Shown piece after piece: positions 27,021 through 33,599 of a DNA stretch of 42,339 nt. The notes beneath the pieces are model-generated. The model did no database searches and had not been told where the DNA came from. It saw nothing but the letters and a program-made list of their open reading frames with translations. The DNA lies in NCBI GenBank assembly GCA_045589735.1, contig JAZNPQ010000009.1, positions 1 to 42,339 of the forward strand. Direction: 5' to 3'. The position numbers and the translations under genes were made by a program. Each line of letters starts with the position of its first letter. The first letter of the stretch is position 1. The stretch comes from Eubacteriales bacterium (lineage in GTDB: Bacteria > Bacillota > Clostridia > Oscillospirales > CAG-272).

Positions 27021-27062
27021 GACCAAAACAAAGCAGGATGCAAAAGCATCCTGCTTTGTTTT
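27021..27062. terminator. Bidirectional terminator
   Basis: aaaacaaagcaggatg-caaaa-gcatcctgctttgtttt, directly after the tRNA-Pro 3' fragment and downstream of the SGNH gene. Confidence 0.75.
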
Positions 27063-27107
27063 GGTCGGAGTGAGGTGATTCGAACACCCGACCTCTTGGT
27101 CCCGAAC
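27062..27107 (-). pseudogene. 3' half of a split tRNA-Pro(CGG), from the anticodon loop to CCA
   Basis: The minus strand reads GTTCGGGACCAAGAGGTCGGGTGTTCGAATCACCTCACTCCGACCA. The acceptor 3' strand CACTCCG pairs (one G-U) with the 5' strand CGGGGTG of the fragment at 33561-33599. Confidence 0.8.
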
Positions 27108-27215
27108 AAATACGCCATCGTTTTTTGACTACTATTGTTGACTTTTTGGTGCTTTTTAGTCCGAAAACGATGCTTTCCGATGCTCTCGTTCGCACTGTTT
27201 CCACGTAGTCCGAAG

Positions 27216-27244
27216 CCGTAGATGGTCAAAGATGTGGTCAAGCC
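27216..27244 (+). repeat. 29-bp sub-terminal direct repeat of the island (left copy)
   Basis: ccgtagatggtcaaagatgtggtcaagcc compared with 33429-33457 ctgtaagtggtcaaacatgtggtcaaacc gives 24/29 identical, same strand. Each copy contains the doublet TGGTCAA. Confidence 0.7.
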
Positions 27245-27388
27245 ACAATCCGAGCCACAAAACCAAACCGCGATTATAGCAAACTCATACCGTCAGGTGA
27301 CTAAACGGTTCACCCCGTGTCGAGTTTTTTCTTCTGCCGTTAGTATAGCATACTATCAAGAATTAGTCAAGCGCCTTCTCTCAACACT

Positions 27389-27422
27389 CAAAATTTGCAT
27401 CGCAGAAGTCAAAGAAAACGCC
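27389..27422 (+). repeat. 34-nt island motif, copy 1
   Basis: caaaatttgcatcgcagaagtcaaagaaaacgcc. It recurs at 28741-28774 and, more diverged, at 33269-33300. Confidence 0.75.
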
Positions 27423-27514
27423 GAGAGAAAAAACAATCTCTACAAGTGTTAACTGTGAGCGATTAAAAATCCCTCATTTTAGAAATAATATTGAGGGAAT
27501 ATTCCCTCAAACCG

Positions 27515-27543
27515 TTGACAATTCCCTTATATTGTGGTATTAT
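27515..27543 (+). promoter_or_regulatory. Promoter of the fic gene
   Basis: TTGACA, a 17-nt spacer, then TATTAT preceded by TG. The palindrome gagggaatattccctc lies just upstream. Confidence 0.6.
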
Positions 27544-27571
27544 TTAAGGGAACGAAAGCGAGGTTAAGGTT

Positions 27572-28618
27572 ATGAGAACATTTAACTACTCCAAAATTAA
27601 CGAACAAAAATGGGATTCGGAGCTTCTCAGCTTAATAGCGGCAATCTACAAAGAAGCCGGAAAGCAGGAGATGTATCTCAAACAACGTCCCGAAGAACTC
27701 GAAAAGCTTGTTGAGATTGCAAAAGTACAAAGCACGGAGAGTTCCAATGCTATTGAAGGTATCGTTACCACGAACACGAGAATCAGGCAGATCGTAGAGG
27801 ATAAGACAACTCCTAAAAACAGAGATGAGCAAGAAATTGCAGGCTACCGTGATGTGTTAAACATCATCCATGAGAGCTTTGATGCCATCCCTATTACGCC
27901 TAACTATATTCTGCAGCTCCATAAAATTCTGTATAGCCATATGAACAATCCTGCGGCTGGAAGAACCAAGAGCGTGCAGAATTATATCAGCGCGACTTAT
28001 CCCGACGGCAGTACAAGAACGCTATTCACTCCTCTCGATCCGTTTGAAACACCGACCGCACTCGAAAGCATCTGTAACGAGTTTAATCGTGTAATCGGTA
28101 ACAATGAATTAGAACCGTTGATTGCCATTCCAATATTCATTCACGACTTCCTTTGCATCCACCCATTCAATGACGGAAACGGAAGAATGAGCCGTTTGCT
28201 CACGACTCTGCTTCTTTACAGAAGTGGCTTCTACGTTGGAAAATATATATCGCTCGAAGCAAAGATCGCCAAGAATAAAGATTTGTACTATGATGCACTT
28301 GGCGAAGCGCAGAACGGTTGGCACGAAGGAAATGAGGATGCAGTTCCTTTCATCAAATATCTGCTTGGAACGATACTTGCAGCTTATAAGGATTTTGAAG
28401 ATAGGTTCAAACTTGTGGAAACCAAACTGCCAGCACTTGAAACTGTGCGTCGCGCAACGATGAATAAGATCGGCAGATTTTCCAAGCAAGACATCAGGGA
28501 GCTGTGTCCTTCGCTCAGTATAAGTTCTATTGAGGGCGCACTCCGAAAGATGGTTGCTGAAGGAGAGTTAAAGCGTGAAGGTAACGGAAAGAATATTCGT
28601 TATTTTAGACTCAAATAA
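27572..28618 (+). CDS. Fic family protein (AMPylase-type) with an N-terminal autoinhibitory motif and a C-terminal wHTH-like domain
   Basis: The Fic motif HPFNDGNGRMSRLL fits HxFx(D/E)GNGRxxR. SNAIEG fits (S/T)xxxE(G/N) and lies upstream of the core. Confidence 0.85.
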   Translation: MRTFNYSKINEQKWDSELLSLIAAIYKEAGKQEMYLKQRPEELEKLVEIAKVQSTESSNAIEGIVTTNTRIRQIVEDKTTPKNRDEQEIAGYRDVLNIIHESFDAIPITPNYILQLHKILYSHMNNPAAGRTKSVQNYISATYPDGSTRTLFTPLDPFETPTALESICNEFNRVIGNNELEPLIAIPIFIHDFLCIHPFNDGNGRMSRLLTTLLLYRSGFYVGKYISLEAKIAKNKDLYYDALGEAQNGWHEGNEDAVPFIKYLLGTILAAYKDFEDRFKLVETKLPALETVRRATMNKIGRFSKQDIRELCPSLSISSIEGALRKMVAEGELKREGNGKNIRYFRLK

Positions 28619-28740
28619 TAAAATGAAATTGGGGAACAGCGTATAACGACTATATTGCAAATGTTCCCCCAATGCATATTTTAGGATAGTTCAAAATTGT
28701 GATTATGCATATTTTCGGAAGGCAACCGTCAATCCATACG

Positions 28741-28774
28741 CAAAATTTGCTTCGCAGAAGTCAAAGAAAACGCC
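28741..28774 (+). repeat. 34-nt island motif, copy 2
   Basis: caaaatttgcttcgcagaagtcaaagaaaacgcc. Confidence 0.75.
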
Positions 28775-28865
28775 ACGTGAAAAAAGCCCAAATTTATTTT
28801 CGAAAAAGTGCTGGACTTCCTCTCTCTTCTGTGGTATGTTGTTGTGCTAACAGGAGGTGCAACCT

Positions 28866-29138
28866 ATGAAAAGTATGATAAAAGAGCTATGGCACGGAAA
28901 CATTATTCCGCAAGAGGACAGCAGAAACAACTCCAAGGAGATGAAGGAGCTACTCGGATACATGGCAAGGCATCACGAGGACTTGGAAAAGACCTTCACC
29001 GACGAGCAGAAGGAGATCTTCGAAAAGTTCCATAACTGCTGGGACGAGTACATAAGCCTTGCCGAAGCAACCATCTTCGAATATGCATTCCGCCTCGGAG
29101 CAAGGCTCACGATGGAGGTACAGTCAGATGGTGAGTAA
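28866..29138 (+). CDS. Small helical hypothetical protein
   Basis: MKSMIKELWHGNIIPQED...FEYAFRLGARLTMEV. AGGAGG lies 8 nt upstream. From memory it resembles small proteins seen in Firmicutes mobile-element cargo regions. I have not verified this. Confidence 0.6.
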   Translation: MKSMIKELWHGNIIPQEDSRNNSKEMKELLGYMARHHEDLEKTFTDEQKEIFEKFHNCWDEYISLAEATIFEYAFRLGARLTMEVQSDGE

Positions 29139-32392: not shown

Positions 32393-32447
32393 TGTTAAGG
32401 GATGCGTACCGAGCGTCGCATCCCTTTTCAAAAATCGGAGGTTAGTC

Positions 32448-32834
32448 TTGGATAACAATGTGAAATTTACATTCGCACAAGTAAGATATATCGTTTGTTT
32501 GTATCGTTTATCACAGGGCGGATATGGAGTAAAGAACGTAGAGCTTGCGAGTGCCCTCGGTTTTAGCAAGCCGAGTGTACATAATATGCTGAAATCCCTT
32601 GCAGAACTTGGGATCGTTAAGCAAGAGATGTTTGGACTTGCCTTTTTCACCGACGAAGGACGTGCCTTGGCTCAGAAATATGTCGTTTGTTATGCAAAGC
32701 TCGAAAAAGAAATGACTGAAATATGTGGAAAGGGTGCGGCAAGTGAAAATGCAATTTGCGGTTTGCTTGCCGATATGCCGTATGATAGATTGAATGAGTT
32801 GTTTCACAGCAATCGCAACGGGAAAAGGGGATAA
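32448..32834 (+). CDS. DtxR-like/winged-helix transcriptional regulator
   Basis: HTH segment VELASALGFSKPSVHNMLKSLAELGIV. Start placed at an in-frame TTG, with GGAGG 6 nt upstream. The longer track ORF overlaps the previous gene and a terminator-like hairpin. Confidence 0.6.
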   Translation: MDNNVKFTFAQVRYIVCLYRLSQGGYGVKNVELASALGFSKPSVHNMLKSLAELGIVKQEMFGLAFFTDEGRALAQKYVVCYAKLEKEMTEICGKGAASENAICGLLADMPYDRLNELFHSNRNGKRG

Positions 32835-32835
32835 A

Positions 32836-33192
32836 ATGGAAAACTATATCATCATCGGAATGATTGCCGTCATCGTAGTTATTGCTGTTATTTCAAGCAT
32901 CAAGCACTTCAAGGGCGAGGGCGGTTGCTGTGGCGGTGGCAGCTACAAGCCGAAGCGTAAGAAGCTCTCGGGCATAAAATACACGAAAAAATTCAAGGTC
33001 GGCGGTATGCACTGCGAGCATTGTAAGAATAGGGTTGAAGAAGCCGTTAACGACATCAAAGGTGTTGCAGGCATAGTCGATCTCAAAAAAGGAGAACTGA
33101 CCGTGTCCTATGCCGAGGACGTTGACGATAAAATCATAAAGGCAAAGATCGAAAGAGCCGGATATACGGTTACAAGATTAATAAATCAATAA
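32836..33192 (+). CDS. Membrane-anchored heavy-metal-associated (HMA) domain protein
   Basis: N-terminal TM helix, a GGCCGGG segment, then an HMA fold with GMHCEHC. Confidence 0.75.
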   Translation: MENYIIIGMIAVIVVIAVISSIKHFKGEGGCCGGGSYKPKRKKLSGIKYTKKFKVGGMHCEHCKNRVEEAVNDIKGVAGIVDLKKGELTVSYAEDVDDKIIKAKIERAGYTVTRLINQ

Positions 33193-33268
33193 TTGCATCG
33201 CTGTAACCAAAGAAAATGCCCAACGAAAAAAGCTGAAATCGAAGGAGGTCTGTCCTACGGTCAGCCCT

Positions 33269-33300
33269 CAAAATTTGCATCGCAGTAGGCAAAGAAAAGG
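33269..33300 (+). repeat. 34-nt island motif, copy 3 (diverged)
   Basis: caaaatttgcatcgcagtaggcaaagaaaagg. Confidence 0.6.
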
Positions 33301-33326
33301 GCTCTGAGAAACACTTCTCAGAGCCA
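33299..33326 (-). terminator. Terminator after the island-borne tRNA-Pro
   Basis: Minus strand: ggctctgagaa-gtgt-ttctcagagcc followed by cttttc. Confidence 0.65.
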
Positions 33327-33329
33327 AAA

Positions 33330-33406
33330 TGGTCGAGGTGACAAGATTCGAACTTGCGACTTCTACGTCCCGAACGTAGCGCTCTACCAAGCTGAGCCAC
33401 ACCTCG
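33330..33406 (-). tRNA. tRNA-Pro (anticodon CGG), complete with encoded CCA
   Basis: CGAGGTGTGGCTCAGCTTGGTAGAGCGCTACGTTCGGGACGTAGAAGTCGCAAGTTCGAATCTTGTCACCTCGACCA folds as a cloverleaf. Anticodon loop TTCGGGA. Confidence 0.85.
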
Positions 33407-33428
33407 AAGGTGGTATTTTTCAATTTTT

Positions 33429-33457
33429 CTGTAAGTGGTCAAACATGTGGTCAAACC
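33429..33457 (+). repeat. 29-bp sub-terminal direct repeat of the island (right copy)
   Basis: ctgtaagtggtcaaacatgtggtcaaacc. See 27216-27244. Confidence 0.7.
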
Positions 33458-33560
33458 GAGGAATTGATGATTTTTCGACATTCGGGAGAGCCGAAAAAGT
33501 CAGTGTTTTCAAGGGCTTTCGGCACTTTCCGAAAAATCTGCGCCGAGAACGGTGATTGAG

Positions 33561-33599
33561 TCCCGAACCAAGCGCTCTACCAAGCTGAGCCACACCCCG
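33561..33599 (-). pseudogene. 5' half of a split tRNA-Pro(CGG), from the acceptor stem to the anticodon loop
   Basis: The minus strand reads CGGGGTGTGGCTCAGCTTGGTAGAGCGCTTGGTTCGGGA, then non-tRNA sequence. It shares the 9-nt GTTCGGGAC with the 3' half at 27062-27107. Confidence 0.8.

What the first reader, a model, noticed from the sequence alone, without database searches (positions are those of the whole stretch)
27062..33599. A 6.45-kb integrase-less island splits tRNA-Pro(CGG) in its anticodon loop and carries a complete replacement tRNA-Pro(CGG)
The 5' half (33599 to 33561, minus strand) and the 3' half (27107 to 27062) share the 9-nt GTTCGGGAC. Joined, they give a canonical 77-nt tRNA-Pro(CGG) with a paired acceptor stem and anticodon stem CTTGG/CCAAG. 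The intervening 27108-33560 encodes a Fic protein, a small hypothetical, a DtxR regulator, FeoA, FeoB, a Cys-rich partner, a second regulator and an HMA protein. No recombinase is visible in any frame. Classical tRNA-targeting elements rebuild the tRNA from an attP-borne 3' segment. Here neither junction restores it. Instead the island carries a different, complete tRNA-Pro(CGG) (33330-33406) with distinct anticodon and T stems, 154 nt inside its right end.
Basis: partly seen in the sequence, partly recalled or inferred. Interest (0 to 1): 0.75.

Follow-up and report, generated by a model that had tools for sequence, protein, structure and literature searches.

The report
Integrase-less island splitting tRNA-Pro, with spare
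A 6.45-kb island sits in the anticodon loop of a proline tRNA gene and carries its own complete replacement tRNA; it is a stripped-down member, without a recombinase, of a previously undescribed family of small mobile elements in gut Clostridia that use the "split the tRNA and bring a spare" strategy so far described only for some phages.

Summary
The two halves at 33599-33560(-) and 27107-27062(-) share GTTCGGGAC. Joined, they give a 77-nt tRNA-Pro(CGG) that is 100% identical to an intact gene at the syntenic, empty site of a related genome (L001). The 6,452 bp between them carry a second, complete tRNA-Pro(CGG) (33330-33406, 64.7 bits). No recombinase is present anywhere in the 42-kb window.

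The island is not an orphan. Relatives share its ends, its replacement tRNA and its DUF6809 gene, and they carry two tandem tyrosine integrases, an excisionase-like HTH protein, a Rep-like protein and sometimes a MobL relaxase. One such element is 99.9% identical in two unrelated hosts. A sister lineage does the same to tRNA-Pro(TGG) and builds tandem arrays by re-targeting its own replacement tRNA. An independent internal-deletion derivative also exists (L095).

The window island is therefore a non-autonomous derivative, like a cis-mobilizable element (CIME). Its integration module is gone and an iron-uptake operon (DtxR-FeoAB-HMA) plus a Fic gene sit in the body.

The principle (short core, tRNA not rebuilt, element-borne tRNA of the same isotype) was published in 2024 for actinobacteriophages as tRNA-dependent lysogeny. 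This is a new variant of a known kind. Whether this copy can still move is untested.

The parts
33615..33643 (-). Host promoter of the split tRNA-Pro(CGG): TTGACA-17 nt-TATAAT, with TG before the -10 hexamer. It is still intact and points through the 5' half towards the replacement tRNA.
   Evidence: 12 of 12 consensus match. The homologous promoter precedes the intact tRNA in L001.
33560..33599 (-). 5' half of host tRNA-Pro(CGG) 'A': acceptor 5' strand, D arm, 5' strand of the anticodon stem and the anticodon loop. This is the attL-type junction. The core copy lies at 33560-33568.
   Evidence: It aligns to L001:2089-2128 with the upstream flank.
33407..33559 (-). Element arm 'X', between the core and the replacement tRNA. 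It holds the conserved block CCCTTGAAAACACTG and the tandem heptamers TTGACCA-N5-TTGACCA (33436-33454). A weak promoter (TTGACC-16-AAAAAT, 33442-33415) overlaps the heptamers.
   Evidence: The arm is conserved in CGG-type and TGG-type relatives. The heptamer motif gives 2 matches in the window against 0.02 expected. Promoter scan.
33330..33406 (-). Complete replacement tRNA-Pro(CGG) 'B'. It has the same orientation as the split gene and its loop contains a third copy of the core (33367-33375).
   Evidence: ARAGORN. Rfam 64.7 bits. The sequence is identical in elements L092, L095, L134 and L152, and identical in L021 except for the anticodon.
33300..33325 (-). Intrinsic terminator of tRNA B.
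   Evidence: 11-bp stem followed by a T-run.
33269..33298 (+). R motif copy 4 (CAAAATTTGCATCGCAGTAGGCAAAGAAAA), directly after the terminator of tRNA B.
   Evidence: Relatives have it at the same position.
33187..33216 (+). R motif copy 3, degenerate (6 mismatches), overlapping the end of the HMA gene.
32794..33192 (+). HMA (heavy-metal-associated) protein. Homologues are about 114 aa, so the true start is probably near 32848.
   Evidence: Pfam PF00403. Homologue lengths.
32292..32834 (+). Winged-helix regulator (IclR-type HTH / DtxR N-terminal domain). Homologues are about 124-143 aa, so the true start is probably later.
   Evidence: Pfam. Called genes in L162-L169.
32204..32392 (+). FeoB-associated Cys-rich small membrane protein.
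   Evidence: Weak match to PF12669. A 62-aa gene sits at the same place in L163 and L168.
30183..32201 (+). FeoB ferrous-iron transporter.
   Evidence: Pfam FeoB_N, Gate and FeoB_C.
29737..30048 (+). FeoA. Homologues are called at 70 aa, so the true start is probably later.
   Evidence: Pfam PF04023..
29679..30126 (.). Three 18-bp palindromes GGTTAGCANTNGCTAACC (29679, 29777, 30109), around feoA. They look like DtxR-type operators.
   Evidence: The resemblance to the DtxR/IdeR box is from my own knowledge and was not tested.
29188..29559 (-). DtxR-family metal-dependent repressor.
   Evidence: Pfam PF02742 and PF01325.
28857..29138 (+). DUF6809 protein. It is a backbone gene of the element family, located near the Y end.
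   Evidence: Pfam PF20648. It is 85% identical to the L021 protein. Homologues occupy the same position in L017, L027, L029, L032 and L041.
28741..28770 (+). R motif copy 2.
27572..28618 (+). Fic-domain protein. It is part of a discrete, widely disseminated module (27461-28626) that the closest relatives lack at this place.
   Evidence: Pfam PF02661. Absent in L021, L095 and L168. Conserved at 92-99% in very many contigs.
27389..27418 (+). R motif copy 1.
27108..27260 (-). Element arm 'Y', between the body and the core. It holds TTGACCA-N5-TTGACCA (27223-27241) followed by the conserved blocks CTACGGCTTCGGACTACGTGGAAACAGTG, AGAGCA, GAAAGCA and AAAAG.
   Evidence: 77% identical to L021:15406-15591. 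The blocks are conserved in L021, L095 (two copies) and the TGG-type L040.
27062..27107 (-). 3' half of host tRNA-Pro(CGG) 'A': anticodon loop, 3' strand of the anticodon stem, variable region, T arm, acceptor 3' strand and CCA. This is the attR-type junction. The core copy lies at 27099-27107.
   Evidence: It aligns to L001:2117-2165 with the downstream flank.
27018..27069 (-). Terminator hairpin of the host tRNA-Pro (24-nt arms), overlapping the tRNA 3' end.
   Evidence: Inverted repeat I1, 96% complementary.

Best explanation
The island is a non-autonomous derivative of a family of small integrative elements of gut Clostridia that depend on tyrosine recombinases.

Autonomous members insert by site-specific recombination whose crossover lies in the 7-nt anticodon loop of a tRNA-Pro gene. 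The element site and the target share only the loop plus one or two neighbouring bases (9 nt here), so the tRNA is cut in two and neither junction rebuilds it. Instead the element carries a complete tRNA-Pro with the same anticodon. This tRNA lies about 150-190 nt inside the junction with the 5' half, in the same orientation. After integration it therefore sits directly downstream of the intact host tRNA promoter and has its own terminator.

In this window the target was tRNA-Pro(CGG) 'A' and the spare is 'B'. This copy has kept both conserved arms (X and Y), the spare tRNA and the backbone gene DUF6809. It has lost the two integrases, the excisionase-like gene and the Rep-like gene. In their place it carries an iron-regulated DtxR-FeoA-FeoB-HMA block and a Fic module.

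What is shown:
- the split gene, the empty site and the spare tRNA;
- homology of both ends to integrase-bearing elements;
- the same element in different hosts at the same loop;
- an independent deletion derivative.

What is inferred:
- a family integrase (Int1-type, perhaps with Int2) catalysed the insertion;
- the TTGACCA repeats and neighbouring blocks are arm-type or accessory binding sites;
- B is expressed and replaces A functionally;
- the integrase module was lost after insertion, or the copy was moved by integrases supplied in trans.
For: Split gene and empty site:
- L001, about 87% nucleotide identity in the flanks, has an intact tRNA identical to the joined halves. Its flanks align up to and across the core.
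- B is a bona fide tRNA with compensatory differences from A, so it is not a hybrid junction product.

Homology to integrase-bearing elements:
- L021 (MT835887.1) has the layout: 5' half, core, X, tRNA B, R, Int1 (478 aa), Int2 (392 aa), orf117, MobL, HTH_17, HTH_36, cargo, DUF6809, R, Y, core, 3' half.
- It is 79% (X + B), 77% (Y) and 88% (R + DUF6809) identical to the window.
- L021 and L152 are 99.9% identical over 8.1 kb starting exactly at the split tRNA, in unrelated host flanks.

The design is family-wide:
- Over 25 IMG/VR loci show: host 5' half of tRNA-Pro(TGG), TTTGGGA, X, the heptamer motif, a complete tRNA-Pro(TGG), then Int1, Int2, HTH_36, HTH_17 and DUF6809.
- L040 shows both ends of a 3.1-kb mini-element.
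- Tandem arrays of split 5' halves show re-targeting of the spare tRNA (L022, L025, L092, L182-L188).
- L031 holds a Y-core-X junction of attP type.

Arms, integrases and derivatives:
- The arms are conserved across both lineages while the sequence next to the core differs. The motif is significant in the window.
- Int1 and Int2 are paralogues with N-terminal arm-binding-like domains. The nearest solved structures include conjugative-transposon 'Int protein' entries (6emy and relatives).
- L095 is an independent non-autonomous derivative: an 11.7-kb internal deletion with both junctions kept.

Expression context:
- A perfect host promoter lies upstream of the 5' half, no predicted terminator lies before B, and a terminator follows B.

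Precedent for the principle: PMC10865867.
Against: - No integrase, excisionase or relaxase is present in the 42-kb window, so nothing in the window shows how this copy arrived or whether it can leave.
- Its arms are only about 77-80% identical to the nearest integrase-bearing relative found, so the cognate integrase was not identified.
- No second copy of this particular island (FeoAB cargo beside tRNA B) was found elsewhere.
- The recombination chemistry, the arm-site function and expression of B are all inferred from sequence.
- tRNA-Pro(CGG) may be dispensable where tRNA-Pro(UGG) reads all four codons. The spare may therefore not be needed for viability in this lineage (my own knowledge, not tested).
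Confidence: 0.8

Rival explanations
1. The island is not a dead remnant. It is an active hitchhiker of CIME or satellite type. Integrases and excisionase supplied in trans by an autonomous relative in the same cell act on its intact attL and attR, so it excises, restores tRNA A and re-integrates. Alternatively it travels in cis after a relative inserts into its tRNA B.
For: - Both arms keep the blocks that are conserved across the family, and all three core copies are intact.
- tRNA B carries the exact core and could serve as a landing site. Relatives demonstrably insert into such spare tRNAs (L092, L022, L025).
- Several related elements in one contig are common.
- Mobilisation of CIMEs in cis by accretion is documented for streptococcal ICEs (PMC5704250).
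Against: - No autonomous relative is visible in the window, and no second copy of this island was found in other contexts.
- The one other derivative found (L095) arose in place, in the same host as its full-length parent.
- The arms differ about 20% from the known integrase-bearing relatives, so cross-recognition is uncertain.
Confidence: 0.3
2. The 9-nt direct repeat is a target-site duplication made by a DDE transposase, that is, a transposon or composite transposon that landed in the tRNA by chance.
For: Nine bp is a common target-duplication length (my own knowledge). No tyrosine recombinase is present in the island.
Against: - No transposase is present in the window.
- The termini are not inverted repeats: 12 of 40 positions match.
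- The repeat coincides exactly with the 7-nt anticodon loop plus one base on each side.
- Relatives sit at the same loop position in different tRNA-Pro genes, with a shifted 9-nt identity (GGTTCGGGA in L021) or with TTTGGGA, always beside tyrosine integrases.
- The core is also part of the element's own attP-type junction (L031).
Confidence: 0.02
3. A classical tRNA-restoring island integrated here, and tRNA B is the rebuilt junction product. Later rearrangement or duplication created the extra 5' fragment.
For: Classical islands leave a complete tRNA at one end and a displaced fragment at the other (PMC4383910). B and the 5' half share 39 of 42 nt (repeat D3).
Against: - B differs from A on both sides of each stem in a compensating way (positions 3 with 70/71, 30/31 with 41/42, 51-53 with 63-65). 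Both halves of B therefore come from one foreign lineage, not from a host 5' half joined to an element 3' half.
- The same B sequence occurs with the same X arm in elements in other hosts whose split 5' halves differ.
- The 5' half, X and complete-tRNA layout recurs in over 25 loci.
Confidence: 0.03
4. The arrangement is an assembly chimera, or the two pieces are a natural split or intron-containing tRNA gene.
For: The source is probably a metagenome-derived assembly, since the relatives are metagenome-assembled genomes. Repeats such as the Fic module break assemblies: many contigs of about 1.3 kb carry it.
Against: - The same architecture is assembled independently in many samples and hosts.
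- Both junctions continue into host DNA that is syntenic with L001.
- No group I or group II intron match, nor any other RNA family, was found across the region.
- The insert carries seven protein genes transcribed from the strand opposite to the tRNA halves, and one (the DtxR-like repressor) from the same strand.
Confidence: 0.02

Closest known systems
tRNA-dependent lysogeny of actinobacteriophages (Fionnbharth / subcluster K4, cluster L; Guerrero-Bustamante & Hatfull 2024, PMC10865867). The Lj965 prophage of Lactobacillus johnsonii is cited there.
   Same: - A tyrosine-integrase element targets a tRNA gene.
- attP and attB share only about 10 bp, so the tRNA is not rebuilt.
[quoted passage not shown]
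- Putative arm-type sites flank the attP core.
   Different: - The relatives here are 3-13-kb integrative elements, some with a MobL relaxase, not temperate phages. In the loci read I saw no capsid, tail or lysis genes, although IMG/VR lists many of them among viral contigs.
- The hosts are gut Clostridia and the target is tRNA-Pro.
- Most members have two tandem paralogous integrases.
- The spare tRNA sits immediately inside the junction, downstream of the host promoter.
- The spare is re-used as a target, which gives arrays.
- The window copy has no integrase at all.
Classical genomic islands and prophages that integrate in the anticodon loop of tRNA genes (Williams 2002 sublocation classes; Islander database, PMC4383910).
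   Same: The crossover lies in the 7-nt anticodon loop, flanked by the symmetric stem. The integrases are tyrosine recombinases of the lambda/Tn916 type with arm-binding domains. In autonomous relatives the integrase gene lies next to the tRNA.
   Different: Classical elements carry the 3' part of the tRNA in attP and regenerate the gene at one junction. Here identity stops 1-2 nt outside the loop, both junctions are dead, and a separate whole tRNA gene is supplied.
CIMEs (cis-mobilizable elements): decayed ICEs or IMEs that keep attL and attR but have lost their integration and transfer genes (Guedon et al. 2017, PMC5704250; ICEberg 2.0, PMC6323972).
   Same: The window island is bounded by both att junctions, which are homologous to those of integrase-bearing relatives. 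It lacks integrase, excisionase and relaxase. The family shows accretion in tandem.
   Different: CIMEs were defined for streptococcal elements that target 3' ends of genes and restore them. Mobilisation of this island was not shown. Its att sites include a split tRNA and a compensating tRNA.
Integrative and mobilizable elements (IMEs) of Firmicutes.
   Same: L021 and L152 combine tyrosine integrases, an Xis-like HTH_17 protein, a Rep-like HTH_36 protein and a MobL relaxase in about 13 kb.
   Different: Most family members seen (the TGG lineage) show no relaxase in the parts read. The window copy has none of these genes.

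Membership tests
Split-and-replace tRNA-Pro elements (the family defined here by L021, L152, L092 and L027 and similar loci) | Inserted in the anticodon loop of a tRNA-Pro gene, with identity limited to the loop plus 1-2 nt. | tested here: met
   The core GTTCGGGAC lies at both junctions. Compare GGTTCGGGA in L021 and TTTGGGA in the TGG lineage.
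Split-and-replace tRNA-Pro elements (the family defined here by L021, L152, L092 and L027 and similar loci) | A complete tRNA-Pro with the same anticodon lies 150-190 nt inside the 5'-half junction, in the same orientation, preceded by the X arm with TGACCA-N5-TTGACCA. | tested here: met
   tRNA B at 33330-33406 and the motif at 33436-33454. X + B is 79-81% identical to L021, L092, L095 and L152.
Split-and-replace tRNA-Pro elements (the family defined here by L021, L152, L092 and L027 and similar loci) | A Y arm with the conserved blocks, and the DUF6809 gene, at the other end. | tested here: met
   The DUF6809 protein is 85% identical to that of L021.
Split-and-replace tRNA-Pro elements (the family defined here by L021, L152, L092 and L027 and similar loci) | An Int1-type tyrosine integrase (usually with Int2, HTH_36 and HTH_17) next to the spare tRNA. 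| tested here: not met
   No hit in the window in any frame. The window copy is therefore a non-autonomous derivative, as is L095.
tRNA-dependent lysogeny (PMC10865867) | attB overlaps a tRNA gene and a short common core means no functional tRNA forms at either junction. | tested here: met
   The halves are not called as tRNA and the core is 9 nt.
tRNA-dependent lysogeny (PMC10865867) | [quoted passage not shown] | tested here: met
   Both are tRNA-Pro with anticodon CGG.
tRNA-dependent lysogeny (PMC10865867) | The element is a temperate phage with its own tyrosine integrase. | tested here: not met
   The window island has no integrase and no phage structural genes. Relatives have integrases but the gene content of an IME.
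tRNA-dependent lysogeny (PMC10865867) | The element tRNA is required for survival of the host after integration. | not testable with these tools
   This needs the full tRNA gene set of the genome and genetics.
Classical tRNA-restoring genomic island (Islander type, PMC4383910) | Sequence within the island regenerates the disrupted tRNA at one junction. | tested here: not met
   The flanks next to the core are not tRNA-like on the island side. ARAGORN and Rfam call no tRNA at either junction.
CIME (PMC5704250) | Retains attL and attR of an integrative element. | tested here: met
   Both junctions and both arms are homologous to those of L021, L095 and L152.
CIME (PMC5704250) | [quoted passage not shown] | tested here: met
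CIME (PMC5704250) | Can be mobilised by a related incoming element (accretion, co-excision, transfer). | not testable with these tools
   Only indirect support: accretion into spare tRNAs occurs in relatives.
DDE transposon with 9-bp target duplication | Terminal inverted repeats and a transposase. | tested here: not met
   12 of 40 terminal positions match. No transposase domain was found.

The most novel reading that the evidence does not exclude
Gut Clostridia harbour a previously undescribed class of small non-phage elements that I call split-and-replace elements. They cut tRNA-Pro genes in the anticodon loop with paired tyrosine recombinases and place their own tRNA under the host promoter. 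Each insertion thereby creates a fresh, portable target, which would explain the arrays. The family also supports recombinase-less riders such as this FeoAB/Fic island, which would be moved in trans or in cis by autonomous relatives. Under this reading the spare tRNA acts as complementation, as a landing pad and possibly as a retention device. The R motif that brackets modules might be a second recombination site served by Int2.
Probability: 0.3. Interest if true: 0.7.

Novelty: new variant of a known kind. Interest (0 to 1): 0.55.

Why it matters
tRNA genes are the classic landing sites of genomic islands. The textbook rule, which island-finding software relies on, is that the element rebuilds the gene it cuts. 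These elements break that rule. Tools that look for a complete tRNA plus a displaced 3' fragment will miss or mis-bound them, and tRNA annotators will report orphan half-tRNAs.

The family extends the recently described phage strategy of tRNA-dependent lysogeny to small integrative, mobilizable elements of abundant gut anaerobes. It also shows two consequences not reported for the phages. First, the spare tRNA becomes the next target, which yields arrays of dead 5' halves. Second, recombinase-less derivatives persist with adaptive cargo, here an iron-regulated ferrous-iron uptake operon and a Fic protein.

If the spare tRNA is the only functional copy, the host depends on the island. The short attP (arms plus a 7-nt core) together with a portable tRNA could be a useful integration tool for Clostridia.

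Tried and rejected
- Exact-protein look-ups of both flanking genes and of the island's Fic and DUF6809 found nothing on record.
- The single genome-contig scan, with the flanking radical-SAM protein, gave only one close relative (L001). That relative happened to show the empty site. Other hits were too distant and had no tRNA nearby.
- A viral-contig scan for the exact tRNA B sequence found nothing. A scan for the window-type core + X junction also found nothing.
- The single metagenome scan used the 5' part of tRNA B. Most of its 120 hits were ordinary chromosomal tRNA-Pro(CGG) genes. Only L092, L095, L134 and L152 were family members.
- Searches for another copy of this island through HMA homologues found the FeoAB-HMA block in other contexts but never beside tRNA B and a split tRNA (L162, L163, L168, L189-L195).
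- I tested whether the R motif is an integron-like cassette site for the Fic module. Elsewhere the Fic module is not flanked by R. It usually follows DUF6809 next to a large serine recombinase. The idea stays unsupported, though not excluded for other modules.
- Rfam gave no family for R, X or Y and no intron.
- Plasmid BLAST of the in-silico attP gave only tRNA-level hits.
- The transposon, classical-restoration, artefact and intron readings were considered and rejected (see the rival explanations).

Full report
**1. The observation**

ARAGORN finds two tRNA genes in the window: tRNA-Pro(cgg) at 33330-33406(-) and tRNA-Leu(taa) at 33923-34011(-). The sequence at 33599-33560(-) reads CGGGGTGTGGCTCAGCTTGGTAGAGCGCTTGGTTCGGGAC. 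The sequence at 27107-27062(-) reads GTTCGGGACCAAGAGGTCGGGTGTTCGAATCACCTCACTCCGACCA. Joined through one copy of GTTCGGGAC they give 77 nt that ARAGORN folds as a canonical tRNA-Pro(cgg).

The 9-mer occurs exactly three times in the 42 kb: at 27099, at 33560 and inside the resident tRNA at 33367. The resident tRNA, 'B', scores 64.7 bits against Rfam RF00005, whose gathering score is 29. The halves alone are not detected as tRNA. B and the reconstructed gene 'A' differ at 14 of 77 positions. Thirteen of these fall in the acceptor, anticodon and T stems as compensating changes, and one is in the variable region. B is therefore an independent tRNA, not a junction hybrid.

Pfam confirms the island genes: Fic, DUF6809, a DtxR-like repressor, FeoA, FeoB, a FeoB-associated Cys-rich peptide, a winged-helix regulator and an HMA protein. 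The flanks are housekeeping genes of a spore-forming Clostridium-like organism:
- on one side, a flavodiiron-type protein and a GDSL lipase;
- on the other, a radical-SAM protein, MntP, an aminotransferase, AsnRS-type synthetase, a helicase and MecA;
- SpoIIR lies further away.

No recombinase domain was found in any ORF of at least 120 aa. The island's G+C content (0.445) does not differ from that of the flanks. One small correction to the finding: the 5' half ends at 33560, so the insert is 27108-33559 (6,452 bp).

**2. The empty site**

The flanking radical-SAM protein retrieved L001 (MAG Eubacteriales, JAZODV010000064.1), whose flanks are 86-89% identical to the window. L001 has tRNA-Leu(taa) and then an intact tRNA-Pro(cgg) at 2089-2165. 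That tRNA is 100% identical to the joined halves and scores 62.7 bits. L001:2028-2128 aligns with window 33660-33560. L001:2117-2181 aligns with window 27110-27044. The two window segments thus meet in L001 across the core. The consensus promoter in front of the gene is also conserved.

**3. Relatives with integrases**

I built the junction that a circularised island would have (right end, core, left end) and ran BLAST against phage records. The hit was MT835887.1 (L021), an unannotated 15.9-kb scaffold from human faeces. In tRNA orientation L021 reads as follows:
- host BipA and YhhN;
- 5' half of a different host tRNA-Pro(CGG), ending GGTTCGGGA|GCAAATCACC;
- arm X, with CTGACCACATGTTTGACCAC;
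- a tRNA identical to B except that its anticodon is AGG;
- terminator and R motif;
- Int1 (478 aa) and Int2 (392 aa), both with PF00589 and PF14659;
- a 117-aa ORF;
- a MobL relaxase;
- an HTH_17 (excisionase/AlpA-like) protein;
- an HTH_36 (replication-initiator-like) protein;
- a 966-aa protein;
- cargo;
- DUF6809 and R;
- arm Y;
- GGTTCGGGA followed by the 3' half.

Identity to the window is 79% for 5' half + X + B, 77% for Y + 3' half, and 88% for R + DUF6809.

A metagenome scan for the 5' part of tRNA B gave mostly ordinary chromosomal tRNA-Pro genes. It also gave four family members:
- L152 is 99.9% identical to L021 over 8.1 kb. The identity begins exactly at the split tRNA, and the upstream host DNA is unrelated.
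- L134 has a truncated Int1.
- L092 is an element inserted into the tRNA B of another element.
- L095 comes from the same host as L152. An 11.7-kb internal deletion fuses the C-terminal part of Int1 to the first 32 codons of DUF6809. This leaves a 1.5-kb element with both junctions intact.

Two conclusions follow. The same element occurs at the same loop position in different hosts. Non-autonomous derivatives arise in this family independently of the window.

**4. A sister lineage on tRNA-Pro(TGG)**

Two degenerate DNA patterns were scanned against IMG/VR: the heptamer motif plus the tRNA start, and the core plus X. They returned about 30 loci. Nearly all read: host 5' half of tRNA-Pro(TGG), TTTGGGA, G|CATAGACGG, X, GTTTGACCACAGATTTGACCAC, about 27 nt, then a complete tRNA-Pro(TGG). 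Next come 1-2 kb of cargo, then Int1, Int2, HTH_36, HTH_17 and DUF6809.

- L017 and L040 have only the Int1-type integrase.
- L040 shows a whole 3.1-kb mini-element with its 3' half.
- Arrays of two or three dead 5' halves, each followed by X, precede the live tRNA in L022, L025 and L182-L188. Incoming elements therefore use the spare tRNA of a resident element as their target.
- L031 contains a Y-core-X junction of attP type. It is followed by the 5' half of a spare tRNA fused to a host 3' half. This fits recombination between loop cores within an array.

**5. Recombination sites**

The identity between element and target is the 7-nt loop plus flanking bases: G-TTCGGGA-C in the window and GG-TTCGGGA in L021. 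This fits a 6-8-bp overlap region for a tyrosine recombinase centred on the loop.

Both arms carry conserved blocks across the CGG and TGG lineages, while the sequence next to the core differs:
- Y has TGACCACANCTTTGACCA-CTAC-G-TTCGGA-TAC-TGGA-ACAGTG, then AGAGCA, GAAAGCA and AAAAG.
- X has CCCTTGAAAACACTG and GTYTGACCACANNTTTGACCACTTACA.

The heptamer pair TTGACCACATNTTTGACCA occurs twice in the window, once in each arm, against 0.02 expected by chance. I read these blocks as binding sites for the integrase arm domain or for accessory proteins. That reading is inference.

Int1 and Int2 are 38% identical paralogues. Both have an N-terminal GxGTIRxRSDGRWE-type domain, and Int1 has a second such segment at its C terminus. 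The nearest solved structures include conjugative-transposon 'Int protein' entries (6emy and relatives) and Xer recombinases.

**6. Expression logic (inferred)**

A 12-of-12 consensus promoter at 33643-33615(-) still drives the split 5' half. On that strand no terminator is predicted before tRNA B, 154 nt downstream. A weaker TTGACC-16-AAAAAT promoter overlaps the heptamer motif. A strong terminator follows B. The placement of the spare tRNA just inside the 5' junction, in the same orientation, is invariant in the family. Integration therefore puts the spare under the host's own tRNA promoter.

**7. What the window copy is**

It keeps X, B, the terminator and R, Y, and DUF6809. tblastn with Int1, Int2, orf117, MobL, HTH_17, HTH_36 and the 966-aa protein finds nothing in the whole window at E<=10. 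Two blocks occupy the body.

- A DtxR-FeoA-FeoB-Cys-HTH-HMA block (about 29136-33205). It is 80-86% identical to blocks in other contigs. In L162 and L163 it again follows DUF6809. In L168 it lies outside, 1.6 kb from the 3' half of a split tRNA-Pro(TGG) whose element has a DUF6809 region 92% identical to the window's.
- A Fic module (27461-28626), absent from L021, L095 and L168 at this position.

The best description is a non-autonomous, CIME-like derivative of the family. I cannot tell whether the integration module was lost after insertion, as in L095, or whether the copy was inserted by enzymes supplied in trans. No second copy of this island was found.

**8. Comparison with what is known**

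The principle has three parts: a tyrosine integrase, a common core of about 10 bp, and a tRNA that is not rebuilt but is replaced by an element-borne tRNA of the same isotype. It was described experimentally in 2024 for mycobacteriophages as tRNA-dependent lysogeny. That paper cites prophage Lj965 as a possible case in Firmicutes (PMC10865867).

Classical tRNA islands regenerate the gene (PMC4383910; a recent anticodon-loop example appears). CIMEs are decayed elements that keep attL and attR (PMC5704250). Full-text searches found no description of this family or of DUF6809.

I therefore rate the finding as a new variant of a known kind. The differences from the phage cases are:
- the elements are not phages;
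- the host clade and the target tRNA are different;
- the integrases are usually paired;
- the spare tRNA sits beside the captured host promoter;
- the spare is re-targeted, which gives arrays;
- in this window, the copy has no recombinase and carries metal-uptake cargo.

**9. Verdict**

The mechanism is not new chemistry. The island is not a free-standing oddity but a stripped member of a family with ordinary tyrosine integrases. Interest is moderate: 0.55.

Noticed in passing
window 27389-27418, 28741-28770, 33187-33216, 33269-33298; also L021:2574 and 15264, L026:264 and 1084, L040:360, 1180 and 2893, L156:1330: A roughly 30-nt 'R' motif (CAAAATTTGCATCGCAGAAGTCAAAGAAAA on the window + strand) occurs four times in the island and nowhere else in the window. 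Across the family it always has the same orientation as the tRNA: after the spare tRNA's terminator, just beyond the Int1 stop codon, and near DUF6809. Pairs of R bracket modules (the Fic gene here, an 820-nt cargo in L026, L039 and L040). There is no Rfam match and its function is unknown. A second recombination site, perhaps for Int2, is possible but unsupported.
   Followed up: partly
window 27461-28626 (Fic module); L170-L180: The Fic protein is 92-99% identical in a very large number of metagenome contigs. Many of these contigs are about 1.3-1.4 kb long, the size of the module, as happens for repeats that break assemblies. In other contexts the module directly follows a DUF6809 gene and often lies near a large serine recombinase, without R motifs. 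DUF6809 followed by Fic looks like a widespread module of clostridial mobile elements.
   Followed up: partly
window 29679-29696, 29777-29794, 30109-30126: Three copies of an 18-bp palindrome, GGTTAGCANTNGCTAACC, lie between the DtxR-like gene and feoA, inside the called feoA ORF, and between feoA and feoB. They resemble DtxR/IdeR-type operators, which suggests metal-regulated expression of the cargo.
   Followed up: no
window 33672-33935 (- strand): A 132-nt segment is duplicated in tandem. It starts with the last 13-14 nt of tRNA-Leu(taa) (CGTCTCCGGCACCA) and includes its terminator and downstream sequence. L001 has the same duplication. It may be the scar of a classical 3'-end integration at tRNA-Leu.
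   Followed up: partly
L021:2466-2542: In L021 the spare tRNA has anticodon AGG (loop TTAGGGA). In the 99.9% identical element in L152, and in L092, L095 and L134, it is CGG. The single change removes the integrase core from the element's own tRNA. It may be a mutation that blocks self-targeting, or a sequencing error.
   Followed up: no
L078, L096, L120, L145, L148, L156: The exact tRNA B sequence is also an ordinary chromosomal tRNA-Pro(CGG), with canonical TTGACA/TATAAT promoters, in other Clostridia. The element's spare was therefore captured from a host lineage. In L156 it is followed by the same terminator and R motif, 96% identical to window 33274-33406.
   Followed up: partly
L076, L079, L136, L153, L160: Some loci show a 5' fragment of tRNA B cut in the D loop (after about 20-23 nt), then 100-200 nt of unrelated sequence, then a complete tRNA B, sometimes twice in tandem. 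In L136 ordinary metabolic genes follow and no element is present. The origin is unknown: remnants of another class of tRNA-splitting element, or small insertions.
   Followed up: partly
L168:6305-12550: In L168 the FeoAB-HMA operon, 86% identical to the window's, lies outside the element. It is 1.6 kb from the 3' half of a split tRNA-Pro(TGG), and several further tRNA 3' fragments lie between them. The element's R + DUF6809 region is 92% identical to the window's. This hints at how the operon may have entered the island, but I could not derive a simple path.
   Followed up: partly
L021:2640-4076 (Int1): Int1 carries a second copy of the N-terminal arm-binding-like segment at its C terminus (residues about 410-461 resemble residues 3-55 of Int2). 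This is unusual for tyrosine integrases.
   Followed up: no
L001:1083-1898 and 2534-6157: The empty-site genome has extra genes between tRNA-Leu and tRNA-Pro (a 271-aa membrane-protein-like ORF) and about 4 kb between tRNA-Pro and two tandem GDSL-lipase paralogues. The neighbourhood is variable apart from the island.
   Followed up: no
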